In this document: positions 1,730-52,328 of the stretch, piece after piece
How positions within the stretch are numbered: the stretch's first letter is position 1
Layout: every line of letters starts with the position of its first letter
Origin: an uncultured Saprospiraceae bacterium
Lineage (GTDB): Bacteria; Bacteroidota; Bacteroidia; Chitinophagales; Saprospiraceae
Direction: 5' to 3'
DNA length: 64,000 bases
Assembly (NCBI GenBank): GCA_964508135.1
Contig: CAZDSU010000040.1
Location: forward strand, 5-64,004
Notes under the pieces: model-generated
What the model was told of the DNA's origin: nothing
What the model saw: only the letters and a program-made list of their open reading frames with translations
Databases searched by the model: none
Made by a program: the position numbers and the translations under genes

Positions 1730-1812
1730 TTGCTGGATTGTTATTATTGTTGAATTGTTTTGGAGCCATGGCCAGCAATCCCAACAATCAAACAATAATA
1801 ACAATCCAGCAA
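1730..1812. repeat. Imperfect 30-bp inverted repeat built from CAATC/CAACAAT-type words
   Basis: The left arm ttgctggattgttattattgttgaattgtt (1730-1759) is the reverse complement of the right arm aacaatcaaacaataataacaatccagcaa (1783-1812), apart from mismatches in a short central stretch. It starts 5 nt after the fabH stop and has no T-tract. Confidence 0.85.
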
Positions 1813-1817
1813 TTAAT

Positions 1818-1825
1818 TACCTTTG
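1818..1825 (+). promoter_or_regulatory. Candidate Bacteroidota -7 promoter box (TAnnTTTG)
   Basis: tacctttg lies 52 nt upstream of the efp ATG. This is a motif match only. Confidence 0.35.
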
Positions 1826-1877
1826 CGCCGTTTTTCAAAGCACCCATTTATTTTTCATCAATTAATTTAAAAACTCA

Positions 1878-2438
1878 ATGGCAACTACTTCCGATATACG
1901 AAACGGCTTGTGCATGGACATGGACAGTGATATTTGGACCGTAGTCGAATTCCAGCACGTTAAACCAGGCAAAGGCCCAGCCTTCGTGCGCACCAAGCTA
2001 AAGTCCTTGACCAAGGGCAAAGTGATTGACCGTACGTGGCCTTCTGGCCACGCCATCACCGAAATAAGGGTAGAAAGGCGTAAGTTCCAGTACCTCTATA
2101 AAGACGAAATGGGCTACAACTTCATGAACATGGACGATTATAACCAGGTTGCCCTTGAAGAAAGCCTTATCGTCAGCCCACAATTTTTGCAGGAAGGCAT
2201 GGTGGTGGATGTTCTGTTCAACTCCGCCAACGATGCGCCACTAACCCTTGAAATGCCGGCAATGGTCGTGGTGGAAATCACCTACACGGAACCTGGCATC
2301 AAAGGAGATACTGCCACCAACACCTACAAACCCGCCACAGTGGACACGGGTGCAGAGGTGAAAGTGCCGCTTTTTATCAATACTGGCGAAAAAATCAAAG
2401 TGGACACCACCACCGGTGAATACATGGGAAGAGCATAA
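1878..2438 (+). CDS. efp: Translation elongation factor P
   Basis: 186-aa ORF reading IRNGLCMDMDSDIWTVVEFQHVKPGKGPAFVRTKLKSLTKGKVIDRTW. This is a typical EF-P KOW/OB N-terminus with the conserved KPGKG loop. Confidence 0.95.
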   Translation: MATTSDIRNGLCMDMDSDIWTVVEFQHVKPGKGPAFVRTKLKSLTKGKVIDRTWPSGHAITEIRVERRKFQYLYKDEMGYNFMNMDDYNQVALEESLIVSPQFLQEGMVVDVLFNSANDAPLTLEMPAMVVVEITYTEPGIKGDTATNTYKPATVDTGAEVKVPLFINTGEKIKVDTTTGEYMGRA

Positions 2439-2533
2439 CAGCGGCAGGCCGCAAACGATTGACGATGGGCTTGCTTGCGCAATGGCCGCCCATCATCAAC
2501 CGTCCACCAGCTGCCGAACCTAAAACGAAAAAT

Positions 2534-3061
2534 ATGACTTTTCAGGAAATCCAGGAGCTTATCCGGCTCCTCAACAAGTCCAACCTGGCCGAGTTCAAGA
2601 TGGAGGAGGGCGATTTCAAACTCTCCATCCGAACGGCATTGTATCGCGACACAAAAACAGCGCACGTTGTCGCAGCGCCAATTCAAATGGCAGCACCTAC
2701 CATGGGCAGCCCTGCGCCAGCAAGCCTGGTTCCCGCTGCCTCTCCAGCCCCGGCAGCAGAAGCCGCCTCCGAGAAACCTTCCGAGGCCGTTGCCAAGCCA
2801 GCTCAACCTTCTGGCCAAGTTTACAAAGAAATAAAGTCGCCAATGGTAGGCACTTTTTACCGCTCCGCCACACCGGAGAAGCCATCCTATGTTGAAATTG
2901 GGCAGAAAGTCAAAAAAGGCGACGTCGTCTGCATCATCGAAGCCATGAAGCTTTTCAACGAAATTGAAAGCGAAATCAGTGGCACCATCGTCAAGGTAAT
3001 GGTTGACAACGCCCAACCTGTTGAATACGACCAAGTACTTTTCCTCGTAGAGCCGGATTAA
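2534..3061 (+). CDS. accB: Acetyl-CoA carboxylase biotin carboxyl carrier protein
   Basis: The ORF is 2459..3061, and I take the start at internal ATG 2534 (MTFQEIQELIRLLNKSNLAEFKMEEGDFKLSIR). It has an Ala/Pro-rich linker and the biotinylation motif CIIEAMKLFNEIES. Confidence 0.9.
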   Translation: MTFQEIQELIRLLNKSNLAEFKMEEGDFKLSIRTALYRDTKTAHVVAAPIQMAAPTMGSPAPASLVPAASPAPAAEAASEKPSEAVAKPAQPSGQVYKEIKSPMVGTFYRSATPEKPSYVEIGQKVKKGDVVCIIEAMKLFNEIESEISGTIVKVMVDNAQPVEYDQVLFLVEPD

Positions 3062-3065
3062 CTTA

Positions 3066-3159
3066 ATAGACATTAGACGTAGACATTAGACATTAGATGG
3101 GGTATAGTGCCTTACAATGTCCGCTGTCTAATGTCTAATGTCTATCGTCCAATGTCTAT
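3066..3159. repeat. Inverted array of GACATTA heptamer words between accB and accC
   Basis: The left arm is atagacattagacgtagacattagacattagat (3066-3098). The right arm is gtctaatgtctaatgtctatcgtccaatgtctat (3126-3159), its imperfect complement. The right arm ends 1 nt before the accC ATG at 3161. Confidence 0.85.
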
Positions 3160-3160
3160 T

Positions 3161-4507
3161 ATGTTCGATAAAGTTCTCATAGCCAATCGTGGCGAAATAG
3201 CGCTGCGAGTCATACGCACTTGCCGCGAGATGGGCATCAAAACGGTGGCCATCTACTCCACCGCCGATGCCGACAGCCTACATGTCCGCTTTGCCGACGA
3301 AGCCGTTTGCGTCGGACCTCCACAGTCCAAGGATTCGTACCTGAACATACCCCGCATCATGGCAGCCGCCGAAATAACCAACGCTGATGCCATCCACCCC
3401 GGCTATGGTTTTTTGGCAGAAAATGCCGATTTCGCTGAAATCTGCGGCGAGTACGGCATCAAGTTCATCGGCCCTACGCCCTCGCAGATCCGCTCCATGG
3501 GCGACAAAATCACTGCCAAAACCACCATGATTGCCGCAGGTGTGCCAGTCGTGCCCGGTTCCGGCGGCCTCATCTCCGATGTCAAAGAGGGCATTGGCCT
3601 TGCCAAGGAGATAGGCTACCCGGTCATCATCAAGGCAACTGCGGGCGGCGGCGGCAAGGGCATGCGCATCATTTGGGACGAAGCCTCTTTTGAATCCAAC
3701 TGGAACATGGCCCGCAACGAGGCTAAGGCTTCCTTCGGCAACGATGGCATCTACATGGAAAAATACATTGAAGAGCCACGTCACATAGAGTTCCAGATAG
3801 TGGGCGACCAGTACGGTACGGTCTGCCACCTCTCCGAGCGGGAGTGCAGCATCCAGCGCCGCCACCAGAAACTGGTGGAAGAAAGCCCCTCACCGTTCAT
3901 GACCCCAGAGCTTCGCCAAAAAATGGGCGATGCCGCCATCAAAGCAGGGCAGGCCATCAACTACGAGGGCGTCGGCACCATAGAGTTCTTGGTGGACAAG
4001 TACCGTAATTTTTACTTCATGGAAATGAACACCCGCATCCAGGTGGAGCATCCGGTGACGGAGGAGGTGATTGACCATGATTTGATAAAAGAACAATTGA
4101 AAGTGGCCATGGGCGAGCCAATTACCGGCAAGAATTACTACCCAGAAATGCACGCCATGGAGTGCCGCATCAACGCCGAAGACCCCTACCGGGACTTCCG
4201 CCCATCGCCCGGCAAAATCATTTCCCTGCACACCGCCAAGGGCCACGGCGTCCGGGTGGACACGCACGTGTACGCCGGATACGTCATCCCGCCCTACTAC
4301 GACTCCCTCATTGCAAAACTCATCTGCCGCGCCCGCACCCGCGACGAGTGCATCACGAAAATGGAACGGGCCCTCGAAGAATTCATCGTGGAAGGCGTCA
4401 AGACGACAATCCCTTTCCACAAAAAACTGATGAAAGACGAGAATTTTAGGTCTGGGAACTTCCACACTGGGTTCTTGAACGATTTTGATTTGGGAACGGA
4501 AGACTGA
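3161..4507 (+). CDS. accC: Acetyl-CoA carboxylase biotin carboxylase subunit
   Basis: The ORF is 3107..4507, and I take the start at ATG 3161 ([33 protein letters not shown]). It has the ATP-grasp glycine loop [12 protein letters not shown] and [14 protein letters not shown]. The upstream 18 codons of the ORF read through the repeat. Confidence 0.93.
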
Positions 4508-4512
4508 AAATA

Positions 4513-4582
4513 ACTGTGAACTATGAATTGTGAACTGTGAACGGGCGAACAGTTCACAATTCACCGTTCACCATTCACAGTT
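4513..4582. repeat. Inverted array of CTGTGAA heptamer words between accC and pcm
   Basis: The left arm actgtgaactatgaattgtgaactgtgaac (4513-4542) pairs imperfectly with the right arm gaacagttcacaattcaccgttcaccattcacagtt (4547-4582). The element starts 6 nt after the accC stop and ends 2 nt before the ATG at 4585. Confidence 0.85.
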
Positions 4583-4584
4583 CG

Positions 4585-5235
4585 ATGCAAGAGGACTCCT
4601 ACCGCCACAAAGGCCTACGCCGCAAGCTGGTTGATTCCCTTCGGAAAAAAGGCATTACTGACGAGCGGGTACTCGCCGCCATTGAGGCCGTGCCACGCCA
4701 TTTTTTCCTCGACAGCGCATTCGCCGACCTGGCATACGAAGACAAGGCCCTGCCCATCGAGCGGGAGCAGACCATTTCGCAGCCCTATACCGTTGCCTTC
4801 CAAACTCAACTTCTTGATTTGCAGAAACGGGACCGGGTGCTCGAAATCGGGACGGGTTCTGGCTACCAAGCAGCTATTTTAGGGCAAATGGGAGCAAGGG
4901 TCTTCACCGTGGAGCGGCAGGAGCAGCTTTTTCTCGAAGCAAAAAAACTACTTGCAACCTTGGGCTTCACCAACGTTCGTTGCTACTTTCGGGATGGCAC
5001 GAAGGGCTTACGGGAGTTTGCCCCATACGATAAAATCATCGTGACGGCGGGTGCCACAGAAGTGCCGCAGACCTTGCTCGACCAACTCAGCATCGGAGGT
5101 TTCATGATTATTCCTGTTGGTGTCCGCTTGCAAAAAATGCTTCGCATCACCAAAAAATCTGAAACCGATTACGTTGAAGAAGATTTTGGCGCCTTCCGCT
5201 TCGTTCCTTTCATCGGCGGCACAGAATCCAAGTGA
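4585..5235 (+). CDS. pcm: Protein-L-isoaspartate O-methyltransferase
   Basis: The ORF is 4537..5235, and I take the start at ATG 4585 (MQEDSYRHKGLRRKLVDSLRKKGI). It has VPRHFF, TISQPYTVA and the SAM motif VLEIGTGSGYQAA. Confidence 0.88.
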   Translation: MQEDSYRHKGLRRKLVDSLRKKGITDERVLAAIEAVPRHFFLDSAFADLAYEDKALPIEREQTISQPYTVAFQTQLLDLQKRDRVLEIGTGSGYQAAILGQMGARVFTVERQEQLFLEAKKLLATLGFTNVRCYFRDGTKGLREFAPYDKIIVTAGATEVPQTLLDQLSIGGFMIIPVGVRLQKMLRITKKSETDYVEEDFGAFRFVPFIGGTESK

Positions 5236-5265
5236 TTCAATTACAACTAGCCACCACAAATTCCC

Positions 5266-5273
5266 TAACTTTG
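5266..5273 (+). promoter_or_regulatory. Candidate -7 promoter box (TAnnTTTG)
   Basis: taactttg lies 78 nt upstream of the E2 gene ATG. This is a motif match only. Confidence 0.35.
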
Positions 5274-5351
5274 CAGCCGAATTTTTCCTAACCAAATATT
5301 TAAAAAACCGTTGAAAAGGTTTTCTAAACCGCAACGAACAACGACAACATC

Positions 5352-6701
5352 ATGGCGCAGTTAGAACTGATAATGCCCAAAATGGGCGAGAGCATCATGG
5401 AAGCCACCATACTGAAGTGGGCAAAAAAAGTGGGCGACCGAGTAGAAGCCGACGAAACCATCCTCGAAATTGCTACCGACAAGGTGGACTCCGAGGTGCC
5501 TTCCCCTACCGCAGGCGTCATCGCTGAAATCTTTTTCAAGGAAAACGACGTGGTACCCGTTGGCAAGGCCATTGCCATCATCGCCACCGACGGTGAGGCC
5601 GTTGCTCCCAAACCATCGCCAGCCTTGAAGGAGGAGCCAATTCCCGCAGCCGCTTCCAACGGCCATTCCAACCTCACTGTGGCAAACGGCGTGACCCATG
5701 CTGCGCAACCCGCAAACAGAGAAGCTGCTCCATCCGTTGCGCTTGAGGGCCCTGCAATACCTGGCCGCTTCTACTCACCTTTGGTAAAAAACATCGCCAA
5801 GGCAGAGAATATCAGCGCCGCGGAGCTGGAACGCATACCCGGCTCGGGCCAGCTGGGGAGGGTGACCAAGCAGGACATTCTGGCTTATGTTGAAACCCGA
5901 CATACTCCGGTAGCCGACCTCCAGCCAGTAGCCCAATCACCAATTCCCAATTCCCAATCCCCAACACCCAAGCCCGCCGTCAGCGTCTCCGGCAACGTGG
6001 AAATCGTGGAGATGGACCGGATGCGCAAGCTCATCGCCGACCACATGGTGATGTCGAAGCAAACATCGCCGCACGTGACCAGTTTCGTGGAAGTGGACGT
6101 GACGAACCTCGTCAACTGGCGGGAGCGCAACAAGGCAGTTTTTGAGAAAAAATATGGGGAAAAAATCACCTTCACGCCCATCTTCGTTGAGGCCGTAGCC
6201 AAAGCCATCAGCGACTTCCCGATGGTCAACGTCTCCGTGGACGGCAACCGCATCATCGTCAAGAAAGACATAAACGTCGGCATGGCCACTGCCCTGCCGA
6301 GCGGCAACCTCATTGTGCCCGTCATCAAAAATGCCAATACACTAAACCTCGTCGGCCTCACCAAGGCCGTGAACGACCTTGCTGGCCGTGCCCGCCAAGG
6401 CAAGCTCAAGCCCGAGGAAATACAGGACGGCACCTTCACGCTCACCAACGTTGGCACCTTCGGCAACGTGATGGGCACGCCAATCATTAACCAGCCGCAG
6501 GTGGCCATCATGGCTGTAGGTGCTATCCGCAAAAAGCCCGCTGTGGTGGAGACGGAGTACGGAGACCTGATTGCTATTCGCCAAATGATGTTCCTCTCCA
6601 TGAGCTACGACCACCGGGTAGTGGACGGTTCGCTTGGCGGTTCCTTCATCCGCCGGGTCGGGGATTATTTGGAACAGTTTGATGGGAAAAGAGAGGTTTG
6701 A
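5352..6701 (+). CDS. 2-oxoacid dehydrogenase complex E2 (dihydrolipoamide acyltransferase)
   Basis: 449 aa. It has an N-terminal lipoyl domain (EIATDKVDSEVPSP), a peripheral-subunit-binding domain (SPLVKNIAKAENISAAELERIPGSGQLGRVTKQDILAYV) and a catalytic domain (SMSYDHRVVDGSLGG). Substrate specificity cannot be told from sequence alone. Confidence 0.87.
   Translation: MAQLELIMPKMGESIMEATILKWAKKVGDRVEADETILEIATDKVDSEVPSPTAGVIAEIFFKENDVVPVGKAIAIIATDGEAVAPKPSPALKEEPIPAAASNGHSNLTVANGVTHAAQPANREAAPSVALEGPAIPGRFYSPLVKNIAKAENISAAELERIPGSGQLGRVTKQDILAYVETRHTPVADLQPVAQSPIPNSQSPTPKPAVSVSGNVEIVEMDRMRKLIADHMVMSKQTSPHVTSFVEVDVTNLVNWRERNKAVFEKKYGEKITFTPIFVEAVAKAISDFPMVNVSVDGNRIIVKKDINVGMATALPSGNLIVPVIKNANTLNLVGLTKAVNDLAGRARQGKLKPEEIQDGTFTLTNVGTFGNVMGTPIINQPQVAIMAVGAIRKKPAVVETEYGDLIAIRQMMFLSMSYDHRVVDGSLGGSFIRRVGDYLEQFDGKREV
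5932..5969. repeat. CCCAAT(T/C) word run inside the E2 interdomain linker
   Basis: cccaatcaccaattcccaattcccaatccccaacaccc encodes AQSPIPNSQSPTP. The same word (cccaattccc) builds the palindrome inside aroB at 9509-9565. Confidence 0.7.
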
Positions 6702-6730
6702 GAGGTATGAGGTGTAGAGGTATGAGGTAT
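6691..6730. repeat. Direct tandem GAGGT(A/G)T word repeat across the E2 stop codon
   Basis: The sequence is gagaggtttgagaggtatgaggtgtagaggtatgaggtat. The 15-mer gaggtatgaggtgta / gaggtatgaggtatt is duplicated. I see no complementary arm. Confidence 0.65.
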
Positions 6731-6740
6731 TAAACGCATT

Positions 6741-7250: not shown

Positions 7251-8620
7251 CACCCGGACAACCACTCCCGAAACACATCTTCCACTTCTGCCCCGTTCCA
7301 CTTCTCCTCCAAGCCCTTGATTTTCAGCATCTTATTGAACAACTGCTCATGTCGTGTCACCTCTGCCAGCGCCCGGCTGTACGGCACATGGCTGAAGCTC
7401 ACCATTGAATATACAGACTGGAACTCCTTCGGAAACCGTTCGTGCAGGTGCTTTTCGATTTTTTTCCAAAGCAAAAACTTGGGGTCTGCGACCTTGTCCC
7501 GCATTTCAATGAAGTTCAGGAGGGCCAGGTCGGCGATGGCGTTCGAGTCCTCGGGTCGGTTGGCGTTGAATTCCTCGATGATGGCGGGCCATTCTTCTTC
7601 GTACTTGTCCATCAGGCTGTCAAGGATGGTACAGTCCTCGAAGCCACAGTTCATGCCCTGCCCGAAGAACGGCACAATGGCATGGGCGGCATCACCGAGC
7701 AGCAAAATCTTGTGGCGGTAGTGCCAAGGATTGCAGCGCACCGTGACCAGCGCCGAGGTTGGATTCTCCGTAAAATCCTGCACCAATGTGGGCATGAGCG
7801 GGATGACATCCGGGAAGTATTTTTCGAAAAAGGCCATCACCTGCGCCTCCGATTTCAAGTTTTCAAACGAAGCCTCGCCCTCGAACGGAAGGAACAGCGT
7901 ACAGGTAAAACTGCCGTCCACGTTCGGTAGTGCGATGAGCATGAACTGGCCCCGTGGCCAAATATGCAGGCCGTTGATGTGCATCCGGTGGCCGCCGCCT
8001 GCCTGTCCGGTAGGCAGGTTTTCGGCTGGCGGAATGGAAAGCTCCTTGTACCCGTAATCAATATACTGCTGTGAATAATTGAACCGGGGCAGCTTTTGCA
8101 GGCTTTGCCGCACGGGCGAAAACGCACCGTCCGTCCCAAAAATCAGGTCGCTCTCGATGGCGTATTGGACGCCCGTGCGGGTGTCCTCGAAGCGCACCGA
8201 ACTGTTGTCGAGGTCAACGCCGAGGCAGGCCTGGTTGAAATGGAAGCGCACTTGGCTGAACTCGTCGGCGATGTTCACCAGTTCGATGTTCAGCCCACCA
8301 CGGGAGACCGAGTAGATGGCCTGCCCCTCTTCGCCGTAAGGTTGATAGGTGAGCGACCCGTCGGTGCCGTGCATCATGCGGCCCGGCATGGGAATGGCCA
8401 CGGCCTCGATTTTTTCACGAATGCCCGCAATCTCCACGGCCTTCCAGCCCCGCTCGCTCAGGGCTAGGTTTATCGAGCGCCCTCCCACGTAGCCCGCTTG
8501 CCGGAAGTCGGCCCGGCGTTCGTACACGTCCACTTGGTATCCCCGTTTTGCCAAAATGACCGCCCAGAGTGCGCCGACCAACCCTGCACCGACGATGACT
8601 GCTTTTTTTTCGTTTGCCAT
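7247..8620 (-). CDS. kmo: Kynurenine 3-monooxygenase (FAD-dependent)
   Basis: 457 aa. The Rossmann motif is VIVGAGLVGALWAVILAKRGYQVDVYERR. It also has RSINLALSERG, and GDAAHAIVPFFGQGMNCGFED, which is typical of KMO-type aromatic hydroxylases. Confidence 0.82.
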   Translation of the reverse strand: MANEKKAVIVGAGLVGALWAVILAKRGYQVDVYERRADFRQAGYVGGRSINLALSERGWKAVEIAGIREKIEAVAIPMPGRMMHGTDGSLTYQPYGEEGQAIYSVSRGGLNIELVNIADEFSQVRFHFNQACLGVDLDNSSVRFEDTRTGVQYAIESDLIFGTDGAFSPVRQSLQKLPRFNYSQQYIDYGYKELSIPPAENLPTGQAGGGHRMHINGLHIWPRGQFMLIALPNVDGSFTCTLFLPFEGEASFENLKSEAQVMAFFEKYFPDVIPLMPTLVQDFTENPTSALVTVRCNPWHYRHKILLLGDAAHAIVPFFGQGMNCGFEDCTILDSLMDKYEEEWPAIIEEFNANRPEDSNAIADLALLNFIEMRDKVADPKFLLWKKIEKHLHERFPKEFQSVYSMVSFSHVPYSRALAEVTRHEQLFNKMLKIKGLEEKWNGAEVEDVFREWLSGC

Positions 8621-8626
8621 TTATTT

Positions 8627-8705
8627 GGGTTAGGAGGTTTTGAGGGTTTTGAAGGTTTAGAGGGTCGTGATTAAACCTTCTAAACTTCCTAAACCTTCTC
8701 AACCC
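8627..8705. repeat. Inverted array of GGTTTnGA-type words in the kmo/aroB divergent spacer
   Basis: The left arm is gggttaggaggttttgagggttttgaaggtttagagggt (8627-8665). The right arm is aaaccttctaaacttcctaaaccttctcaaccc (8673-8705), an imperfect complement. Confidence 0.8.
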
Positions 8706-8746
8706 ATTCAAGTTTTGCCCCAAAACTAGGACGTTTTTGGTGAAAA

Positions 8747-9868
8747 ATGCCCGCCCAATTGCTAATCTTGCGCATGTTTATACTTCATCTAAACGAGTAC
8801 GAAATTTCCATCGGGGAAATGGGGCAGCCGCTCCGATCGCTGGTTGCCGGAAGCAACTACACGAAAATCGCCGTGCTGGTGGACGCCAACACCCGCCGTC
8901 ATTGCTTTCCCTATTTCTTACAAAGCATTGATTTTGAGGTAGTTGCCATCGAAATACCCACAGGGGAACGGTTCAAGAACCTCGACATTTGCAGCTTCAT
9001 CTGGTCTGAAATGATGCGCCACGGCCTCGACCGCCGCTCGCTGCTCATCAACCTCGGCGGTGGTGTCATTGGCGACATGGGCGGCTTTTGCGCTGCCACC
9101 TACCTGCGGGGCATTGACTTCGTGCAGGTGCCCACAACCCTCCTCTCGCAAGTGGACGCCTCGGTCGGCGGCAAGGTGGCCATTGATTTCAACGGCGTAA
9201 AAAACAGCATCGGCGTCTTCCAAAACCCCAAGGCCGTGTTGGTTGACCCCGTTTTTTTGAAAACCCTGCCCCTCACCGAAATCCGAAGTGGCTTCGCCGA
9301 GGTGTTCAAGCATGCGCTGATCGCCGATGCAGCGCAGTGGCAGGACTTGCAGCAAATCACCGACCTGATGGTGGTGGACTGGGCGAAGTTCCTCGCCCCC
9401 TCATTGTCCATCAAAAAACGCATCGTGGAGGAAGATCCGCTCGAAGGTGGCATCCGCAAGGCACTGAATTTTGGACATACCATCGGACATGCAGTGGAAA
9501 GCCATGTTTTGGGAATTGGGAATTCTAGCTCCCAATTCCCCATTTCCCCATTTCCCAATTCCCAACTATCGCATGGCGAAGCTGTTGCCTTGGGCATCGT
9601 CTGCGAGAGTTGGCTGTCGCACAAACTGTTGGGGCTTTCCTCAGCGGAACTGGGCGAGATAGTTGCGTTCGTGCGACGGTTTTACCCCCACCATCCGCTT
9701 GCAGAAAGGGACTTTCCAGCCATTTTTGATTTGATGAAAAAAGACAAGAAAAATGTGGGCGGTCGCATCAATTTCACGCTGTTGTCTGTCATTGGGCGGG
9801 CGAGGATTGACCAATATTGTGGGGTTGTGGTGATTGAGGAGAGTTTGCGGTTTTATAGGAGTTTGTAA
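8747..9868 (+). CDS. aroB: 3-dehydroquinate synthase
   Basis: 373-aa ORF with LINLGGGVIGDMGGFCAATYLRGIDFVQVPTTLLSQVDASVGGK and the metal-binding block LNFGHTIGHAVE...HGEAVALG. The start is uncertain (ATG 8747 or 8774). It contains an in-frame repeat insertion, listed as the next feature. Confidence 0.85.
   Translation: MPAQLLILRMFILHLNEYEISIGEMGQPLRSLVAGSNYTKIAVLVDANTRRHCFPYFLQSIDFEVVAIEIPTGERFKNLDICSFIWSEMMRHGLDRRSLLINLGGGVIGDMGGFCAATYLRGIDFVQVPTTLLSQVDASVGGKVAIDFNGVKNSIGVFQNPKAVLVDPVFLKTLPLTEIRSGFAEVFKHALIADAAQWQDLQQITDLMVVDWAKFLAPSLSIKKRIVEEDPLEGGIRKALNFGHTIGHAVESHVLGIGNSSSQFPISPFPNSQLSHGEAVALGIVCESWLSHKLLGLSSAELGEIVAFVRRFYPHHPLAERDFPAIFDLMKKDKKNVGGRINFTLLSVIGRARIDQYCGVVVIEESLRFYRSL
9509..9565. 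repeat. Palindromic CCCAATT-word element embedded in frame in aroB
   Basis: The sequence is ttgggaattgggaatt-ctagct-cccaattccccatttccccatttcccaattcccaa. The core gggaattggg (9511-9520) pairs perfectly with cccaattccc (9531-9540). It encodes GIGNSSSQFPISPFPNSQ between the two His-containing metal-site blocks. Confidence 0.8.
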
Positions 9869-18444: not shown

Positions 18445-19260
18445 TCACGTGCGATCCTTCGAAAACAACTGCTTCACCGCAGAAACCACAAACCCCGACA
18501 AGTTCATGTACGGTGGTTTCATCAACAACTGCACCCCGGTCAGCCCGACCCAACCAGCCATGGCAGCAAACGACAGGTCACCGAAACGGGTGAAGCCTCG
18601 GAAGTCGTGCATGTTGAGCCGCATCAGTTCGTACATCACAAAATCGGTGACGATATAGGCGCTGTTCACCCAGAACAGCAGCAGCATGACTCGTAACATG
18701 CGCCGCAACACCAGCGCCTCGTAGAGCTGCTGGCCACCCTCCTGTTTTTTGCGGAGCGCCGAAACCTTAAACCGGATGTAACGGTACGCCGCAAACTGGT
18801 AAGTGTAAAAGGTGAAAATGTAAAGTGCCATCTCCAGCCCACCATAAAATGGCGAATAAAACCGCCGTATCAAAAGCCCATCCGTCAGCAGCCACGCACC
18901 GAGAAAATAGGCAAACTGCGTCAGCGGAAGCAGTGCATGTTTGGCGTCGCTGCCCACAAACTTGTAGGTAGGGAACAGCCGCAACTTCACCGAAATATAC
19001 AACAGCACCCCGAACGACAGGGTGAAATACAGTGGCAGCGAAGTCAGGTGCGGGTTGGCGTGGTAGATGCCCCGCAGGATGAAAATATGGTGCAGCGCCG
19101 TCAGGGCATAGGCCATCAACAGCCCGAAAAAAGCGAGGTCGGCCCGCTTGTTCTCGTTTTTGCGGAGCAAAAAAACGACGGCCACCGCCCCGTTCAGTGC
19201 GACCGTTGCGCAAAGAACCAGAAAGGACAAGGTGGTTAGCGTTCCGGTGAAGAAATTCAT
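18445..19260 (-). CDS. Hypothetical polytopic membrane protein
   Basis: 271 aa with about 7 hydrophobic segments and no recognisable soluble domain or catalytic motif. Confidence 0.55.
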   Translation of the reverse strand: MNFFTGTLTTLSFLVLCATVALNGAVAVVFLLRKNENKRADLAFFGLLMAYALTALHHIFILRGIYHANPHLTSLPLYFTLSFGVLLYISVKLRLFPTYKFVGSDAKHALLPLTQFAYFLGAWLLTDGLLIRRFYSPFYGGLEMALYIFTFYTYQFAAYRYIRFKVSALRKKQEGGQQLYEALVLRRMLRVMLLLFWVNSAYIVTDFVMYELMRLNMHDFRGFTRFGDLSFAAMAGWVGLTGVQLLMKPPYMNLSGFVVSAVKQLFSKDRT

Positions 19261-19341
19261 TGTTGAATTGCTATATTGTTGAATTGCTATATTGTTGAAT
19301 TGCTATAAAACAATACAACAATATAGCAATTCAATAATCAA
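19260..19341. repeat. Three perfect tandem 16-mers (TTGTTGAATTGCTATA) plus a complementary arm
   Basis: The copies are at 19260-19275, 19276-19291 and 19292-19307. The complementary arm is caatacaacaatatagcaattcaataatcaa (19311-19341). The element fills the spacer between the PBP4 stop and the membrane-protein start. Confidence 0.9.
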
Positions 19342-34658: not shown

Positions 34659-35840
34659 ATGTTGTCCAAAACTATGGCCGGACTTTACCTTCATATCCCT
34701 TTTTGCAAACAGGCTTGTCACTACTGCAATTTCCATTTTTCGACTTCCCTCAAGTTGAAGGATGAAATGGTGGCCGCCATCCTGCGAGAGTTGGCACTGC
34801 AAAAAGACTACCTCGGAGGCGAGCCGCTGGAGACCATTTACTTTGGCGGTGGCACGCCCTCACTCCTCAACCAGCGTGATTTGGATTTGATTTTTGGTGA
34901 AATTTTCAAGCACTACCCACTTGCAAGTGACGGCGTGACTTTGAGTCACGCCGTCACTAAACCTAGCCTCGAAATCACATTGGAGGCTAATCCAGACGAC
35001 TTGAACCCATTGAAAATCAAGGAATTGCGACAAACGCCCGTGAACCGCCTGAGCATCGGCGTACAGTCTTTTTCGGAGGCAGACCTGCGCTTCATGAACC
35101 GGGCGAACAATGCCTCGGAGGCGCTTGCCAGCATCCAAAATACCCAAGCAGCGGGCTTTGATAACCTTTCGGTTGACCTTATTTACGGCTCTCCAACTAC
35201 CTCTCACGAACAATGGGCGGCGAACTTGGAGCAGGTTTTCAAGTTGAAAATCCCGCACCTCTCCTGCTACTGCCTGACCGTGGAGCCGAAAACTGCCCTC
35301 GCCCACCAGATAAAAAAGGGCACCGTTCAGCCTGTTGACGACGAACATGCCGCTCAACAGTTTGAGTTTTTGATGGAAAAAACGGCGCAGGCAGGCTACG
35401 AGCATTATGAAATCAGCAACTTGGCCTTGCCCGGCCACTATTCCCGCCACAACACGAGCTACTGGCTGGGCAAAAAATACCTCGGCATCGGCCCATCGGC
35501 GCACTCGTTCAATGGCGTGAGCCGCCAGTGGAACGTGGCGAACAATGCTGCCTACATCCGCTCCCTGCAAGTGGGCGAGCTGCCTTTTGAAATAGAAGTG
35601 CTGACGCCGACCCAGCGTTACAACGAGTACGTGATGACGGGGTTGCGCACCAAATGGGGCTGCAATCTATTGAAAATCAAGGAATTGGGATTTGAAGTGC
35701 ATTTCGACGAAGGCGCAAAATCATTTTTGGCGGATGGCACGATGGAGCGGGAGGGCGATGTGTTTAGGCTAACTCAAGCGGGTCGGTTCTTGGCAGATGG
35801 GATTGCGGCGGAGCTTTTTGCGGAGGAGGGAAATGGTTGA
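34659..35840 (+). CDS. hemW: Radical SAM heme chaperone HemW / oxygen-independent coproporphyrinogen oxidase-like protein
   Basis: The CxxxCxxC cluster motif is in LYLHIPFCKQACHYCNFHF. It also has GGGTPS, EITLEANP and a HemN_C-like C-terminus. The start is ATG 34659 or 34674. Confidence 0.85.
   Translation: MLSKTMAGLYLHIPFCKQACHYCNFHFSTSLKLKDEMVAAILRELALQKDYLGGEPLETIYFGGGTPSLLNQRDLDLIFGEIFKHYPLASDGVTLSHAVTKPSLEITLEANPDDLNPLKIKELRQTPVNRLSIGVQSFSEADLRFMNRANNASEALASIQNTQAAGFDNLSVDLIYGSPTTSHEQWAANLEQVFKLKIPHLSCYCLTVEPKTALAHQIKKGTVQPVDDEHAAQQFEFLMEKTAQAGYEHYEISNLALPGHYSRHNTSYWLGKKYLGIGPSAHSFNGVSRQWNVANNAAYIRSLQVGELPFEIEVLTPTQRYNEYVMTGLRTKWGCNLLKIKELGFEVHFDEGAKSFLADGTMEREGDVFRLTQAGRFLADGIAAELFAEEGNG
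34926..34958. repeat. Perfect 15-bp-stem palindrome in frame inside hemW
   Basis: The sequence is agtgacggcgtgact-ttg-agtcacgccgtcact. The arms are exact reverse complements. It encodes SDGVTLSHAVT just before the conserved EITLEANP block. Confidence 0.92.
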
Positions 35841-35910
35841 AATGGTTAAATTGGTTGAAGTAGTTGAATTAGGGTAGCGCCTAGCCAATTCAACAAGTTC
35901 AACTATTTCC
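35829..35910. repeat. Inverted array of GGTTGAA/AATGGTT words across the hemW stop
   Basis: The left arm is ggaaatggttgaaatggttaaattggttgaagtagttgaattaggg (35829-35874). The right arm is ctagccaattcaacaagttcaactatttcc (35881-35910). An A9 run follows. Confidence 0.8.
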
Positions 35911-36051
35911 CAAAAAAAAAGCAGCCGGAAGCTATCTGGGGGGCAGTGCTTCCGACCACTTTCCGGGAATAGGGGGCATCCGGTTTTTAGGATGCAATCG
36001 GCTTTCTTCTTTTTTCTTTCCCGGAGCAGGGTCTCTTTGCCCGGCTCGGGG

Positions 36052-37192: not shown

Positions 37193-37204
37193 GTAAAAAT
37201 GAGT

Positions 37205-37231
37205 GAATGATTGAAGGTTGGAATGATTGAA
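37205..37231. repeat. Direct GAATGATTGAA word repeat
   Basis: gaatgattgaa occurs at 37205-37215 and 37221-37231, between the kinase stop and the regulator start. The word is related to the one at 576-599. Confidence 0.5.
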
Positions 37232-37252
37232 TGGGTTGACAGTGCATGATTT

Positions 37253-42781: not shown

Positions 42782-42854
42782 AATTGTTGGCTTGCAGGAT
42801 TGTTCAATTGACTTGTGTTGCTCAACAATCAAACAATCCAGCAATCCAACAATT
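42782..42854. repeat. Inverted array of CAATC/CAACAAT words between ATP-grasp and GATase1 genes
   Basis: The left arm is aattgttggcttgcaggattgttcaattgac (42782-42812). The right arm is ctcaacaatcaaacaatccagcaatccaacaatt (42821-42854), an imperfect complement. The word family matches 1730-1812 and 51870-52328. Confidence 0.8.
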
Positions 42855-47297: not shown

Positions 47298-47306
47298 AAG
47301 TTTTAC

Positions 47307-47340
47307 GACAACTTAGGACAACTTAGGACAATCGAGACTT
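47307..47340. repeat. Direct decamer repeat GACAACTTAG
   Basis: The sequence is gacaacttag gacaacttag gacaatcgag actt, upstream of polA. I see no complementary arm. Confidence 0.7.
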
Positions 47341-50241: not shown

Positions 50242-50252
50242 AAATGCCTACA

Positions 50253-50936
50253 TCACCTCGTAATTACCCGCATAAAATCCCACGCCACCAGCAAGGTCTC
50301 CCCCTCAAAATGCAGCCCCGGCGTCAGCCGCTTCTGATGCATCGCCAGTATTTCGGGGTCTTTTTTCAAAAAAGTAAAAATAGTGCGCATCACCTTGAAG
50401 TAACGGCCAAGCTCGTTCACCATTGGTACGTCACGGCTGCCGAGCAGCTCCATCAGCCGCCGGAAGCTGTCGAAATCGAAAGGTAGGTACTGCGTCGGAT
50501 AGCGGAAAGCGAGGTAGATGGACACCATCTGGTAGTTGTCGTGGTGGAAGTGGCTGTTGAGTTTGGAGCCGGGGTGGGCTTCCCGCCAGGCAGCCAGCAA
50601 CTCGTCGGAATGAAACACGAAGCGGCCAACCCGACCGTCCAAGTCCTTGGCCTCGTTGAAAAGGTCTTGAAAAGCATACCGCACGAACTCCCGGTCCATT
50701 TCGATGAACTTGAGCATCATCTCCTTCGGCTCGTAATGTTCCCGCTTCCAGAGGCGGCGAGAGCGGGAGTTTTCCAGACTGCGGTCGTACATCGTGCGGA
50801 AGTCCAGCGCCTCCACGTCCCAGTTTTCCTGAAAAATGCGCTGCGACTCCCACGGCAGGTAGGGGTCGTGCCGTGGGTTTTTGCGAAGAAAATTGGCGTA
50901 TTGCCCAATGGCATCGTTGAGTTTTTGCAGATTCAT
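50253..50936 (-). CDS. Hypothetical protein
   Basis: 227-aa soluble-looking ORF, convergent with polA with an 11-bp gap. I recognise no motif with confidence. Confidence 0.5.
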   Translation of the reverse strand: MNLQKLNDAIGQYANFLRKNPRHDPYLPWESQRIFQENWDVEALDFRTMYDRSLENSRSRRLWKREHYEPKEMMLKFIEMDREFVRYAFQDLFNEAKDLDGRVGRFVFHSDELLAAWREAHPGSKLNSHFHHDNYQMVSIYLAFRYPTQYLPFDFDSFRRLMELLGSRDVPMVNELGRYFKVMRTIFTFLKKDPEILAMHQKRLTPGLHFEGETLLVAWDFMRVITR

Positions 50937-51042
50937 ACCGGTAATTTCATGCAGTTTTTTCCCTCAAAACAAATGGAAGTACATTTGTCAGAAAAAATCA
51001 TCAAAAACTTGGCGGCGAAGCTACATATTTGCGGAAGTGGAC

Positions 51043-51103
51043 GGTTTGGTTTCAGGTTTAAAGTTTCAGGGTAGGCCCTGTCTGAAACCTGAAACCCAAA
51101 ACC
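51043..51103. repeat. Inverted array of GTTTCAGG words
   Basis: The left arm is ggtttggtttcaggtttaaagtttcaggg (51043-51071). The right arm is ccctgtctgaaacctgaaacccaaaacc (51076-51103). It lies in the divergent spacer upstream of the phosphoesterase gene. Confidence 0.8.
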
Positions 51104-51121
51104 TGGAACCGCTTAAACAGC

Positions 51122-51871
51122 ATGAAACTTATTCAAATCACTGACCTGCACGTTGCGAGCGAGGGCGAGTTCACCCATGGTGTGGACGTGCGGCAGAATT
51201 TTTTGGATATACTGCAAGCGGCCAAATCCTTCTCTCCAGACTACCTCATCCTCTCCGGCGACCTTGCCTACGAAACCGCCAACGAACAGGTTTATCGGTG
51301 GATGAAGTCGCAGCTTGATGACCTCGGCATCCCCTACGCCCCCATTGGTGGCAATCACGACAATTCTGCGCTGTTGGCGCGGGTTTTCGGGTTGGAACAC
51401 CTGCTCACCGACGGCAACCTTTACTACAAACTGCCCCTGCCTGAGCATACCCTGCTGCTGCTCGAAACATCCAATGGCACGATCACCGAGGCGCAACTGG
51501 TGTGGCTAGCCAATGAGTTGGCGCAACTAGACGCACCCGCCGTCATCTTCATGCACCACCCGCCGGTGGAAGGCGGTGTGCCCTACATGGACGTTAATTA
51601 TCCGCTTCGCAATATGGCCGATGTGCAGGAGGTATTGTACCAACACCCATTTCCTGTGTACATTTTCTGCGGGCATTACCATGTTGAAAAAATGCTTTGC
51701 GTAAAAAACCTTGTGGTGCACATCACACCAACCACCTACTTCCAGATGAAATGGCAACAACCAGGGTTCCTGCTCGACCACCTCAGAATCGGCCTGCGGG
51801 AAATCAACCTACGGCCCGATGGCGTAGTGGAAAGTGCGGTAGTTTACTACGATGGGAATAAAACGGAGTGA
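51122..51871 (+). CDS. Metallophosphoesterase (CpdA-like cyclic nucleotide phosphodiesterase family)
   Basis: 249 aa with the calcineurin-like motifs ITDLHV, SGDLA, GNHD, FMHHPP and GHYH. Confidence 0.8.
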   Translation: MKLIQITDLHVASEGEFTHGVDVRQNFLDILQAAKSFSPDYLILSGDLAYETANEQVYRWMKSQLDDLGIPYAPIGGNHDNSALLARVFGLEHLLTDGNLYYKLPLPEHTLLLLETSNGTITEAQLVWLANELAQLDAPAVIFMHHPPVEGGVPYMDVNYPLRNMADVQEVLYQHPFPVYIFCGHYHVEKMLCVKNLVVHITPTTYFQMKWQQPGFLLDHLRIGLREINLRPDGVVESAVVYYDGNKTE

Positions 51872-51902
51872 TTGTTTGATTGTTAAATTGCTTGATTGTT
51901 GG
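51870..51902. repeat. Left arm of the inverted repeat enclosing the four-helix-bundle gene
   Basis: The reverse complement of gattgtttgattgttaaattgcttgattgttgg matches 52298-52328 at about 29 of 31 positions. The arm overlaps the phosphoesterase stop codon. Confidence 0.8.
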
Positions 51903-51919
51903 ACTGCAAAACAACTACT

Positions 51920-52300
51920 ATGGGAGAGAAAAACTACCTCAAGCTCAACGATATTGATGCCTATAAAACAGCTTTTCACCTTTCGAATTATGTTTGGGAC
52001 CTGGTTGCACCGTGGGATTTTTTCGCAAAGAAGACAATAGGCGCTCAGTTTGTAGATGCTGCCGATTCCATTTCAGCAAATATTGCAGAGGGTTTTGGAA
52101 GGTGGAACAAGAAAGACAAGGTCAAATTTTACAGATACAGTCAAGGCTCTCGGAAGGAATGTTATGACTGGAACGAAAAGGCTCGTTACAGAAAATTGGT
52201 TACAGAAGAGCAATACGACCATATTTTTCAAGAACTGGAAAAGCTGGGCCCCGCCATTTCAAGGCTCATAAAATTTACCAATGAAAAACTGTCCCAATAA
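51920..52300 (+). CDS. Four-helix-bundle protein (23S rRNA intervening-sequence protein / Avd-like family)
   Basis: The ORF is 51896..52300, and I take the start at ATG 51920. AYKTAFHLSNYVWDLV...AADSISANIAEGFGR...KVKFYRYSQGSRKECYDW is the signature of the TIGR02436/PF05635-type family as I recall it. The gene is AT-rich compared with its neighbours. Confidence 0.8.
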   Translation: MGEKNYLKLNDIDAYKTAFHLSNYVWDLVAPWDFFAKKTIGAQFVDAADSISANIAEGFGRWNKKDKVKFYRYSQGSRKECYDWNEKARYRKLVTEEQYDHIFQELEKLGPAISRLIKFTNEKLSQ

Positions 52301-52328
52301 CAATCAAGCAATCTAACAATCAAGCAAT
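52294..52328. repeat. Right arm of the inverted repeat enclosing the four-helix-bundle gene
   Basis: The arm is ccaataacaatcaagcaatctaacaatcaagcaat. It overlaps the stop codon of the enclosed gene and ends 3 nt before the aminotransferase ATG. Confidence 0.8.

What the first reader, a model, noticed from the sequence alone, without database searches (positions are those of the whole stretch)
1730..52328. Intergenic spacers are filled with locus-specific short-word tandem arrays mirrored into long imperfect palindromes
At least nine spacers contain the same kind of construct: 1730-1812, 3066-3159, 4513-4582, 8627-8705, 19260-19341, 35829-35910, 42782-42854, 51043-51103 and 51870/52294. A 7-16 nt word is iterated 2-4 times with point variants on one arm, and the complementary word array forms the other arm, giving 25-45 bp imperfect stems.

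The word differs between loci: GACATTA, CTGTGAA, GGTTTnGA, TTGTTGAATTGCTATA, GGTTGAA, GTTTCAGG and CAATC/CAACAAT. These are therefore not copies of a single mobile element, and most lack the T-tract of a classical terminator. Arrays without a mirror arm also occur (576-599, 6691-6730, 37205-37231, 47307-47340).

The nearest analogy I know is the cyanobacterial STRR heptamer repeats, but the systematic inverted arrangement tightly bracketed by stop and start codons is different. Possible roles are RNA-processing or insulator hairpins, T-tract-independent terminators, or products of slippage plus template switching.
Basis: partly seen in the sequence, partly recalled or inferred. Interest (0 to 1): 0.72.

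Follow-up and report, generated by a model that had tools for sequence, protein, structure and literature searches.

The report
Fast-changing tandem-word hairpins between genes
The spacers between genes in this Saprospiraceae-like bacterium really do hold long hairpins built from repeated 7-9 base words; they belong to dispersed repeat families, one of which frames a small "23S rRNA intervening-sequence protein" gene, and they change far faster than the DNA around them.

Summary
All nine cited constructs exist at the stated coordinates. Their RNA folding z-scores are -4.4 to -10.9, and a strict palindrome scan finds 10 in the window against 0 in six shuffles.

The words are not locus-specific. 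Four of the nine loci use one 8-mer family (nATTGTTn). The same family flanks, as inverted arrays, all 10 PF05635/TIGR02436 four-helix-bundle genes I inspected, including the one at 51920-52300. Other words recur at unrelated loci in related genomes, and some sit in frame inside genes.

In a relative that is 97.5% identical in coding DNA and 97.8% in other non-coding DNA, the hairpin spacers are only 41% identical.

Every 5' arm is G/T-rich, C-poor and rich in stop triplets, and every 3' arm is C/A-rich (25 of 26 across 2.3 Mb of Bacteroidota DNA).

Best reading: these are several families of dispersed palindromic elements, resembling both REP elements and rRNA intervening sequences. They survive at gene boundaries and probably form RNase III-type stems in mRNA. 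How they spread and what they do remain untested. I found no paper describing them.

The parts
1729..1813 (.). Hairpin in the fabH-efp spacer. Arms 1729-1759 and 1783-1813, word family nATTGTTn/ATTGCTGG. It looks like the version of the four-helix-bundle cassette repeats without the gene.
   Evidence: 31-nt arms, 94% complementary; -40.6 kcal/mol, z -8.7; starts 3 nt after the fabH stop; replaced by a GGTTTCA-word hairpin in L081.
2442..2516 (.). Weaker hairpin in the efp-accB spacer (ACGATTGACGATGGGC / GCCCATCATCAACCGT). The word GACGATT is related to the L172 11055 family.
   Evidence: found only when A-C/G-T pairs are allowed, score 23.8; sequence shown. Tentative member.
3060..3165 (.). 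Hairpin filling the accB-accC spacer, word TAGACAT. The base of the stem includes the accB stop codon and the accC start codon.
   Evidence: -54.8 kcal/mol, z -10.7; overlaps stop and start; replaced by a GTATGAG/GAGGCAT hairpin in L081.
4512..4583 (.). Hairpin filling the accC-pcm spacer, word AACTGTG.
   Evidence: z -5.9; 4 nt after the accC stop and 1 nt before the pcm ATG; the same word and the same borders in L105 (pcm 83% aa identity), but a GTTATGA hairpin in L081.
8620..8711 (.). Hairpin between divergent genes (FAD monooxygenase start and aroB start), word GGTTTTGAG.
   Evidence: z -4.6; same word family but rearranged units in L081; a similar word at L105 7853-7925.
9509..9565 (.). 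Hairpin (TTGGGAA / TTCCCAA) in frame inside aroB, encoding about 19 extra residues between the HAVE and LSHGEAV motifs.
   Evidence: L083 carries a CCAATCA x4 array at the same place in aroB, and L081 carries a variant hairpin.
19252..19345 (.). Hairpin between two minus-strand genes, 16-nt unit TTGTTGAATTGCTATA (two 8-mers of the ATTGTT family). It overlaps the start codon of one gene and the stop codon of the other.
   Evidence: three perfect copies; z -10.9.
35828..35911 (.). Hairpin starting inside the last codons of the HemN-like gene, word GAAATGGTT. A canonical T-tract terminator follows at 35916-35964.
   Evidence: z -6.5.
42782..42854 (.). Hairpin between two minus-strand genes (GATase start, RimK-like stop), word GGATTGTT/CAACAATC (ATTGTT family).
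   Evidence: z -7.2.
51048..51110 (.). Hairpin 11 nt upstream of the metallophosphoesterase start codon, word GGTTTCAGG.
   Evidence: z -4.9; same word family as the L081 fabH-efp hairpin.
51869..51907 (+). Left inverted array (TGATTGTT units) of the four-helix-bundle cassette. Its first TGA is the stop codon of the metallophosphoesterase gene.
   Evidence: (30-nt arms, 93% complementary, 398 nt apart).
51920..52300 (+). Gene for a PF05635 / TIGR02436 four-helix-bundle protein ("23S rRNA intervening sequence protein"), lying in the loop of the palindrome.
   Evidence: PF05635, E 3.7e-21; TIGR02436, 77 bits against a cut-off of 24; more than 3500 homologs; the listed top 120 are 67-92% identical.
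52294..52328 (+). Right inverted array (AACAATC units) of the cassette, ending 3 nt before the aminotransferase ATG.
576..599 (.). Unmirrored array (GAATGAAT type on the + strand). It is C/A-rich in the sense of the minus-strand gene whose start codon it abuts.
   Evidence: conserved in L081.
6691..6730 (+). Unmirrored G-rich array (GAGGTAT) rich in stop triplets, straddling the stop codon (6699-6701) of the E2 acyltransferase gene and running on beyond it. It uses the same word as L081's accB-accC hairpin.
37198..37233 (.). Unmirrored array (AATGATTG on the + strand). It is C/A-rich in gene sense and lies immediately upstream of the response-regulator start codon.
47303..47331 (+). Unmirrored array, TTAGGACAAC x 2.9, upstream of polA.
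5932..5975 (+). In-frame CCCAATC array in the linker of the E2 acyltransferase. Same word family as the 3' arm of the aroB hairpin.
21745..21779 (+). In-frame CTCAAATC x 4.4 array inside mfd, between two domains. The same word forms the 3' arm of the L172 15616-15702 hairpin.
33095..33137 (-). Half copy of the AGTTGGC/AGTTCGAC hairpin family, in frame near the GH3 domain's C-terminal boundary (about residues 425-439) of a GH3 + beta-lactamase-like fusion protein.
   Evidence: 91-94% identity to L081 7387-7473.

Best explanation
The spacers hold members of several dispersed families of small palindromic repeat elements whose arms are tandem arrays of 7-9 nt words. One family (nATTGTTn) also occurs as a full cassette, in which the two arrays enclose a PF05635 four-helix-bundle gene. 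That is the same layout as the ORF-bearing intervening sequences (IVS) of 23S rRNA. The short hairpins of this family look like versions without the gene.

Shown:
- The elements turn over much faster than the surrounding DNA.
- They recur at unrelated loci.
- They occasionally sit in frame inside genes.
- They have a fixed handedness: the 5' arm is G/T-rich, C-poor and rich in stop triplets, and the 3' arm is C/A-rich.

Inferred:
- A palindrome reads the same on both strands. This handedness therefore always puts a stop-rich sequence after an upstream stop codon and a G-poor, unstructured sequence before a downstream start codon, whatever the gene orientation. Copies with this handedness would do the least harm, so they persist at gene boundaries.
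- The arms stay complementary through slippage and intramolecular template switching at the DNA level.
- When transcribed, the 25-45 bp stems are substrates for RNase III, as shown experimentally for IVS stems. Cleavage would separate or insulate neighbouring cistrons.

The way copies spread or are replaced is unknown. No transposase is associated with them.
For: Non-randomness
- 10 palindromes against 0 in shuffles.
- Folding z-scores of -4.4 to -10.9.

Link to the four-helix-bundle cassette
- 10 of 10 PF05635 genes are flanked by inverted GATTGTTn arrays. The genes are 71-85% identical to the window's copy in protein sequence. Their settings include the sdhA/sdhB spacer and one cassette antisense to both neighbours.
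- Window hairpins 1729, 19252 and 42782 use the same words. 1729 also shares the inner junction motifs TTGTT(TT)GG and CCCAACAAT.

Dispersal
- L081 7387-7473 and L172 12691-12779 are nearly identical, including their irregular units, yet lie at different loci. A half copy sits at window 33095-33137.
- L081's fabH-efp hairpin matches the word family of window 51043.
- The GAGGTAT, CTCAAATC and CCCAAT words are shared between hairpins, unmirrored arrays and in-frame arrays within genes.

Turnover
- Window against L081 over 13 kb: coding 97.5% identical, other non-coding 97.8%, hairpin spacers 40.8%.
- The more distant L105 keeps the window's AACTGTG hairpin with the same borders. L081's allele is therefore the derived one.

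Handedness
- 5' arm G>C in 11 of 11 window hairpins and in 25 of 26 tandem-word hairpins across 2.28 Mb. Ordinary hairpins split 71:70.
- 5'-arm words are 6% C, and 30 of 38 contain a stop triplet.
- Unmirrored arrays show the same bias in gene sense: 54:32 G-rich after stops and 50:33 C-rich before starts.

DNA-level rather than RNA-level maintenance
- There is no excess of G-U-compatible mismatches on the sense strand. The sense strand folded better in 6 cases and the antisense strand in 8.

Precedent
- IVS elements with an S23p (PF05635) ORF have a 28-bp stem of terminal inverted repeats cut by RNase III (PMC4990558, read).
Against: - No mobility enzyme was found. The window has no transposase, REP-associated transposase or integrase, and PF05635 proteins are not known recombinases.
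- No target-site duplications or clean occupied-versus-empty site pairs were obtained.
- A hairpin occupies the same three spacers in the window, L081 and L105 despite different sequences. This could mean host selection for a structure there rather than selfish spread.
- The stop-triplet excess beyond base composition is modest (30 observed against 24.7 expected, p about 0.02, on a hand-curated and non-independent word list).
- RNase III cleavage rests on analogy only. No transcript data were available.
- The copy-number claim rests on about 125 kb from this clade, not on a whole genome.
Confidence: 0.5

Rival explanations
1. The hairpins are host-selected RNA elements that evolve in place. 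They might be T-tract-independent terminators or attenuators, mRNA-stabilising or processing stems, or translational-coupling devices that hide the C/A-rich leader of the next gene. In this reading the structure is what is conserved, the sequence drifts quickly through slippage plus compensatory change, and shared words reflect convergence under common constraints (stops, no C, no self-pairing).
For: - A hairpin is kept at the accB-accC and accC-pcm spacers in the window, L081 and L105, with different sequences. Tandem-word hairpins also occur at the accB-accC spacer in distant relatives L026, L068 and L073.
- In many other Bacteroidota, a canonical terminator sits where the window has the accC-pcm hairpin.
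- The stems abut stop and start codons exactly.
- Arrays show an orientation bias in gene sense.
- The handedness rule suits every gene-pair orientation.
Against: - No sense-strand G-U bias.
- Near-identical copies with the same irregular units at non-orthologous loci are hard to explain by convergence.
- Some copies are in frame inside coding regions.
- A conserved protein-coding cassette shares the arms.
- 41% identity against a 97.8% background is too fast for drift with compensation.
- accB and accC are normally co-expressed, so a strong terminator between them is unlikely (general knowledge).
- The closest family-level relatives, L001-L008, have no hairpin at these spacers.
Confidence: 0.25
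2. The hairpins are a neutral mutational by-product. A lineage-specific tendency to heptamer or octamer slippage, together with quasi-palindrome template switching, builds and rebuilds mirrored arrays wherever selection is weak, that is, in spacers. They have no function and are not truly mobile.
For: - Heptamer repeats are the commonest long simple repeats in many prokaryotes and have been attributed to polymerase slippage (Mrazek 2007, as summarised in PMC4679880).
- Period 6-10 arrays are about 20 times denser in intergenic than in ORF sequence.
- The 8627 and 9509 hairpins differ from L081's by unit rearrangements and indels.
- No sense-strand G-U bias.
Against: - A strand-symmetric neutral process does not predict 25 of 26 hairpins with a G-rich 5' arm.
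- Unmirrored arrays at 576 and 6691 are conserved between the window and L081, while the mirrored ones are replaced.
- Whole hairpins are shared between loci.
- The GATTGTT arrays are conserved around a gene under strong purifying selection in many lineages.
Confidence: 0.15

Closest known systems
ORF-bearing intervening sequences (IVS) of 23S rRNA (Leptospira, Coxiella burnetii), which encode the S23p / PF05635 protein
   Same: The element at 51869-52328 has the same layout: terminal inverted repeats that can form a stem of about 30 bp around a PF05635 four-helix-bundle ORF. ORF-less IVS hairpins of about 100 nt also exist, which parallels the short hairpins here. The stem length suits RNase III.
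   Different: These elements lie in mRNA spacers between protein genes, not in rRNA helices 9, 25 or 45. Their arms are tandem arrays of 8-mer words. They are very numerous (roughly one per 5-7 kb in the DNA sampled from this clade). Excision by RNase III is untested here.
REP / BIME / REPIN elements of proteobacteria, mobilised by REP-associated tyrosine transposases (RAYT)
   Same: Both are short extragenic palindromes present in several families per genome. Both are often placed between co-transcribed or convergent genes, and both are transcribed into mRNA, where REPs stabilise upstream messages.
   Different: There is no conserved GTAG or CGTC head. The arms are internally tandem-repetitive. 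The stems are much longer (25-45 bp). No RAYT was seen. Sequence differs strongly between copies, and the arms have a fixed G-rich/C-rich handedness.
Heptamer tandem repeats: cyanobacterial STRR, long simple sequence repeats (Mrazek 2007), and TAACTGA repeats of Beggiatoaceae, Cyanobacteria and a few Bacteroidetes (PMC4679880)
   Same: All are intergenic arrays of 7-nt words that contain stop triplets and do not self-pair, often directly upstream of start codons. The window's unmirrored arrays fit this description.
   Different: Those are direct arrays. The TAACTGA study found one inverted set among 170. Here the defining feature is a mirrored array forming a long stem. These hairpins also show hypervariability between close relatives and a link to PF05635 cassettes.
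Rickettsia palindromic elements (RPE) (from my own knowledge: Ogata et al. 2000)
   Same: Both are palindromic repeats that can sit in frame inside protein-coding genes, adding a peptide segment in a tolerated loop (aroB 9509-9565; array copies in the E2 linker and in mfd; the half copy inside the GH3-fusion ORF).
   Different: RPEs are 100-150 bp families with conserved sequence and no tandem-word arms. Here most copies are intergenic.
MITEs such as Correia elements
   Same: Short elements without a transposase that have terminal inverted repeats and a longer relative carrying an ORF.
   Different: The ORF-bearing relative encodes a four-helix-bundle protein, not a transposase. No target-site duplication was seen.
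Integron attC sites
   Same: Imperfect palindromes of variable sequence placed immediately after one ORF and before the next.
   Different: The flanking genes are housekeeping genes in conserved order. There are no GTTRRRY core sites and no integrase. I considered this and rejected it.

Membership tests
23S rRNA intervening sequence (IVS) elements | Inserted in a 23S (or 16S) rRNA helix (helices 9, 25 or 45) | tested here: not met
   All copies lie between or inside protein-coding genes. There are no Rfam hits, and therefore no rRNA, in the window; gene map.
23S rRNA intervening sequence (IVS) elements | Terminal inverted repeats forming a long stem (28 bp in Coxiella) | tested here: met
   Arms of 30 nt, 93% complementary, at 51871-51900 / 52299-52328. 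The short hairpins have 14-43 Watson-Crick pairs.
23S rRNA intervening sequence (IVS) elements | ORF for an S23p / PF05635 protein in the loop (the ORF-bearing subclass) | tested here: met
   51920-52300 matches PF05635 (E 3.7e-21) and TIGR02436. The other hairpins have no ORF.
23S rRNA intervening sequence (IVS) elements | Excised from the transcript by RNase III | not testable with these tools
   This needs RNA end-mapping with and without RNase III. Only the precedent in PMC4990558 is available.
REP / REPIN elements | Many near-identical copies with a conserved GTAG or CGTC head | tested here: not met
   The sequences listed share no common head. The words differ between families.
REP / REPIN elements | A cognate RAYT (Y1 transposase) gene in the genome | tested here: inconclusive
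   None in the 64 kb window. The rest of the genome was not available.
MITE | Target-site duplication flanking the terminal inverted repeats | tested here: inconclusive
   No duplication is evident at the borders in alignments A1-A3. No clean pair of an occupied and an empty site was obtained.
MITE | A related autonomous element that encodes a transposase | tested here: not met
   The ORF-bearing relative encodes a four-helix-bundle protein. An IS110 gene next to the cassette in L202 is a separate insertion.
Intrinsic (Rho-independent) terminators | Short G+C-rich stem, 3-8 nt loop, followed by a T-tract | tested here: not met
   None of the hairpins in 1-20000 was called. The flanks lack T-runs. 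Canonical terminators do exist elsewhere in the window (about 55255-55295 and 40590-40644).
STRR / long simple sequence heptamer repeats | Intergenic direct tandem arrays of units of about 7 nt | tested here: met
   periods 7 (20 words), 8 (10) and 9 (6); roughly 20-fold intergenic enrichment. The mirrored arrangement goes beyond this definition.
Integron attC sites | Conserved core sites (GTTRRRY / RYYYAAC), an integrase, and promoterless accessory cassettes | tested here: not met
   The flanking genes are fabH, efp, accB, accC and pcm, in an order conserved in relatives. No integrase was found. The words do not fit GTTRRRY.

The most novel reading that the evidence does not exclude
Bacteroidota may carry an undescribed class of actively turning-over palindromic elements whose arms are written in tandem 7-9 nt words with a fixed handedness. 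These elements would be linked to the very abundant PF05635 four-helix-bundle proteins, which are relatives of the Avd protein of diversity-generating retroelements. They would be copied or replaced at gene boundaries by a mechanism that needs no transposase, such as hairpin-templated or four-helix-bundle-assisted synthesis. In mRNA they would serve as RNase III-processed insulators that place stop codons after one gene and an unstructured leader before the next.
Probability: 0.2. Interest if true: 0.85.

Novelty: new variant of a known kind. Interest (0 to 1): 0.66.

Why it matters
If these elements are as common genome-wide as in the roughly 125 kb sampled from this clade, they would number in the hundreds to a thousand per genome. 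That would make them a major, unannotated component of Bacteroidota intergenic DNA.

They sit at the point where one gene's translation ends and the next begins, in a phylum that lacks Shine-Dalgarno-led initiation. They could therefore shape operon expression, mRNA processing and strain-level variation.

The consistent framing of PF05635 genes by the same word arrays gives a concrete handle on a very large protein family of unknown function. It also bears on the old question of where rRNA intervening sequences come from.

The hairpin spacers are the most variable segments between genomes that are otherwise 97.5% identical. That could make them useful strain markers, and it makes them a likely source of assembly and annotation errors.

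Tried and rejected
- **Rfam scan of the whole window:** no family reached its threshold. There are no tRNA or tmRNA genes.
- **Sliding-window minimum free energy alone:** it did not separate the hairpins from G+C-rich coding sequence. I replaced it with a dedicated palindrome scan.
- **Terminator hypothesis:** no T-tracts, and no calls by the consensus scan.
- **RNA-level selection tested through G-U against A-C mismatches on the sense strand:** no bias.
- **Metagenome-contig scan with Pcm:** no relative closer than 86% aa identity. Population-level allele series could therefore not be built. The only close relative, L081, came from an exact-protein look-up.
- **Viral contigs searched for GATTGTT arrays:** 25 hits, all unmirrored at that pattern and none next to a four-helix-bundle gene, so there is no sign of phage carriage.
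- **PDB sequence search with the four-helix-bundle protein:** no hit.
- **Search for a transposase, RAYT or integrase in the window:** none. I found only an HNH endonuclease and toxin-antitoxin genes.
- **Integron attC, CRISPR and assembly artefact:** all considered and rejected. The window matches an independent record, L082, at 100% over 12.4 kb, and the hairpins also assemble in L081, L105 and L172.
- **Literature searches:** I found no description of mirrored word arrays or of their link to PF05635. The library lacks most subscription journals, so this absence is weak evidence.

Full report
**What the window is.** The 64 kb window encodes ordinary housekeeping genes: fabH, efp, accB, accC, pcm, an E2 acyltransferase, aroB, gcvP, mfd and polA. 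Its AccC protein is closest to those of Saprospiraceae MAGs, at 82% or less. An ENA metagenome contig, L082, is 100% identical to the window over 12.4 kb. A MAG contig, L081 from GCA_016719855.1, is a close relative.

**Checking the observation.**
- The inverted-repeat tool returns arms of 22-41 nt with 73-100% complementarity at eight loci. It also returns the 30-nt arms, 398 nt apart, at 51871/52299.
- Tandem Repeats Finder shows units of period 7, 8, 9 or 16 in both arms.
- My Watson-Crick-only palindrome scan finds 10 palindromes scoring 14 or more, and none in six dinucleotide shuffles.
- RNA folding gives z-scores from -4.4 to -10.9. No shuffle out of 200 folded as well.
- The hairpins lack T-tracts and were not called by the terminator scan.
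- Bracketing by codons is tight. The accB-accC stem includes both the TAA stop and the ATG start. The accC-pcm stem starts 4 nt after the stop and ends 1 nt before the ATG.
- The scan adds two members: a hairpin in frame inside aroB (9509-9565) and a weaker stem in the efp-accB spacer (2442-2516).

**The words are not locus-specific.**
- The ORF in the loop of the 51870/52294 palindrome is a PF05635 / TIGR02436 four-helix-bundle protein, the "23S rRNA intervening sequence protein". It has more than 3500 homologs; the listed top 120 are 67-92% identical.
- I pulled the DNA around nine further homologs, from different genomes and gene neighbourhoods. Two of them lie between sdhA and sdhB, and one is antisense to both neighbours. 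All ten cassettes, counting the window's, are flanked by inverted arrays of the same 8-mer, nGATTGTTn. In the seven whose junctions I compared, the innermost left unit reads ATTGTTGG.
- The window's hairpins at 1729, 19252 and 42782 and the array at 37198 are written in the same words. Four of the nine cited loci therefore belong to one family, which also exists as a gene-carrying cassette.
- Other families are dispersed too. L081 7387-7473 and L172 12691-12779 are nearly identical, down to their irregular units, but lie between different genes. A half copy lies inside a GH3-fusion ORF at window 33095-33137.
- L081's fabH-efp hairpin uses the words of window 51043.
- The words GAGGTAT, CTCAAATC and CCCAAT are shared between hairpins, unmirrored arrays and in-frame arrays in the E2 linker, mfd and aroB.

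**Turnover.**
- I aligned 13 kb of the window with L081. Coding DNA is 97.5% identical and non-hairpin non-coding DNA is 97.8% identical. The four hairpin spacers are 40.8% identical, which is effectively unalignable.
- Apart from gene-content differences, and deletions within the FAD monooxygenase gene and aroB in L081 (possibly assembly errors), the hairpins are the only hypervariable islands.
- The variable block runs exactly from the stop codon to the next start codon.
- L105 is more distant (Pcm 83% identical), yet it keeps the window's AACTGTG hairpin with the same borders. L081's GTTATGA hairpin is therefore a recent replacement or a very rapid remodelling.
- L088 is still more distant and has an ACTCATA array, the complement of L081's word, at the same place.
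- The unmirrored arrays at 576 and 6691 are conserved between the window and L081. It is the mirrored state that is unstable.

**Handedness.**
- A palindrome reads the same on both strands, so "which arm is G-rich" is a true asymmetry.
- All 11 window hairpins have G>C in the 5' arm and C>G in the 3' arm.
- Across 2.28 Mb of Bacteroidota loci, 25 of 26 tandem-word hairpins follow this rule, whereas ordinary hairpins split 71:70.
- The 5'-arm words are 40% T, 28% G, 26% A and 6% C. Thirty of 38 contain a stop triplet, against 24.7 expected from composition (p about 0.02, on a hand-curated list). Periods of 7 or 8 dominate, which walks the stop through all three frames.
- The consequence holds for tandem, convergent and divergent gene pairs alike. 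The arm next to an upstream stop codon is rich in stops, and the arm next to a downstream start codon is C/A-rich and G-poor.
- Unmirrored arrays show the same tendency in gene sense: 54:32 G-rich after stops and 50:33 C-rich before starts.
- In-frame copies inside genes use the stop-free orientation or a stop-free frame.

**Distribution.**
- Tandem-word hairpins occur sporadically across Bacteroidota: L005, L026, L052, L068, L070, L073, L088, L096, L107, L119, L120 and L143.
- They are dense in the window's own clade, with about 10 in 64 kb, and several (roughly 4-6) in each of the 20 kb loci L081, L105 and L172.
- Period 6-10 arrays are about 20 times denser in intergenic than in ORF sequence.
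- The closest family-level relatives, L001-L008, lack them at the same spacers and use canonical terminators with A and T tracts. Canonical terminators also exist in the window.

**Mechanism.**
- Shown: the hairpins form several dispersed families, they turn over quickly, they have a fixed handedness, and one family frames a PF05635 gene.
- Shown: there is no sense-strand preference for G-U-compatible mismatches. This argues that the arms are kept complementary at the DNA level.
- Inferred: template switching within quasi-palindromes, together with slippage, is the mechanism that maintains the arms.
- Inferred: selection filters out copies whose handedness would disturb the neighbouring genes.
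- Inferred by analogy with IVS elements, where a 28-bp stem around the same kind of ORF is cut by RNase III (PMC4990558): the transcribed stems are RNase III substrates that separate neighbouring cistrons.
- Unknown: how copies spread or replace one another. No transposase, RAYT or integrase is present in the window.
- The main rival is in-place evolution of host-selected RNA structures. It is favoured by the persistent occupation of the same spacers. It is disfavoured by near-identical copies at unrelated loci, by in-frame copies inside genes and by the missing strand bias.

**Comparison with what is known.** The nearest relatives in kind are these:
- ORF-bearing 23S rRNA intervening sequences: same layout, wrong location.
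- REP/REPIN elements: same niche, but no conserved head, no RAYT and no tandem-word arms.
- Heptamer direct repeats (STRR, long simple sequence repeats and TAACTGA; PMC4679880). These describe the unmirrored arrays but not the mirrored stems.
- Rickettsia palindromic elements, for the in-frame copies (from my own knowledge).

None of the eight successful literature searches turned up a description of mirrored word arrays or of their association with PF05635. The library is incomplete, so I rate this a new variant of a known kind rather than categorically new.

Noticed in passing
window 34481-34537: A 25-nt-arm palindrome, 92% complementary, with no tandem words (GGCATTTCATCTTTGAAAATCTAAA / TTTAAATTTTCAAGGATGAAATGCC). 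It lies in the divergent spacer between the GH3-fusion gene and the HemN-like gene. It could be an operator or a different kind of repeat.
   Followed up: no
window 44934-45035: A 23-nt inverted repeat, 96% complementary (ATAGTGGTCGCCCAATTTATTGG), with a 56-nt spacer, between the esterase gene and the short-chain dehydrogenase gene. It is not made of tandem words.
   Followed up: no
window 13950-16950: A low-G+C island (39% against about 52%) carrying toxin-antitoxin-like pairs: an HTH/Peptidase_M78 gene with DUF4411, and a PIN gene with UPF0175. It is probably horizontally acquired.
   Followed up: partly
window 9843-10829 vs L081 17844-18345: An HNH endonuclease gene (9876-10298) and an adjacent unknown ORF (10295-10846) in the window are replaced in the 97.5%-identical relative L081 by a short segment that includes a small Uma2-like ORF.
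   Followed up: partly
L081 17466-17600 (aroB) and window 7972-8044: In L081, aroB has a deletion of about 65 nt next to the in-frame hairpin and was called as two genes. The FAD monooxygenase gene has a 21-nt deletion and was not called. These may be real pseudogenes or MAG assembly errors.
   Followed up: no
L172 16599-16804 and L172 11055-11206: Compound structures in a contig from the same metagenome as the window. One is a double hairpin of TTGGCG-type words that fills a stop-to-stop spacer. The other is a GACGATT-word hairpin whose 85-nt loop holds a second, ordinary stem. They suggest nested or adjacent insertions.
   Followed up: partly
L202 10561-11922: An IS110-family transposase gene lies immediately downstream of a four-helix-bundle cassette in a low-G+C Bacteroidota contig, and the right-hand GATTGTT array there is degraded. 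This may be an insertion into the cassette's arm.
   Followed up: no
window 59559-59591 and 34926-34958: Two perfect 15-16-nt palindromes with 1-3 nt loops lie inside coding regions (an 836-aa ORF and the HemN-like gene). They are not tandem-word hairpins.
   Followed up: no
L204 2273-2397 and 6301-6399: A Saprospiraceae UBA6168 contig carries hairpins built from CATTGTTTCA/CATGGTTTCA words. These are close to, but distinct from, the GATTGTT cassette words, which hints that word families grade into one another.
   Followed up: no
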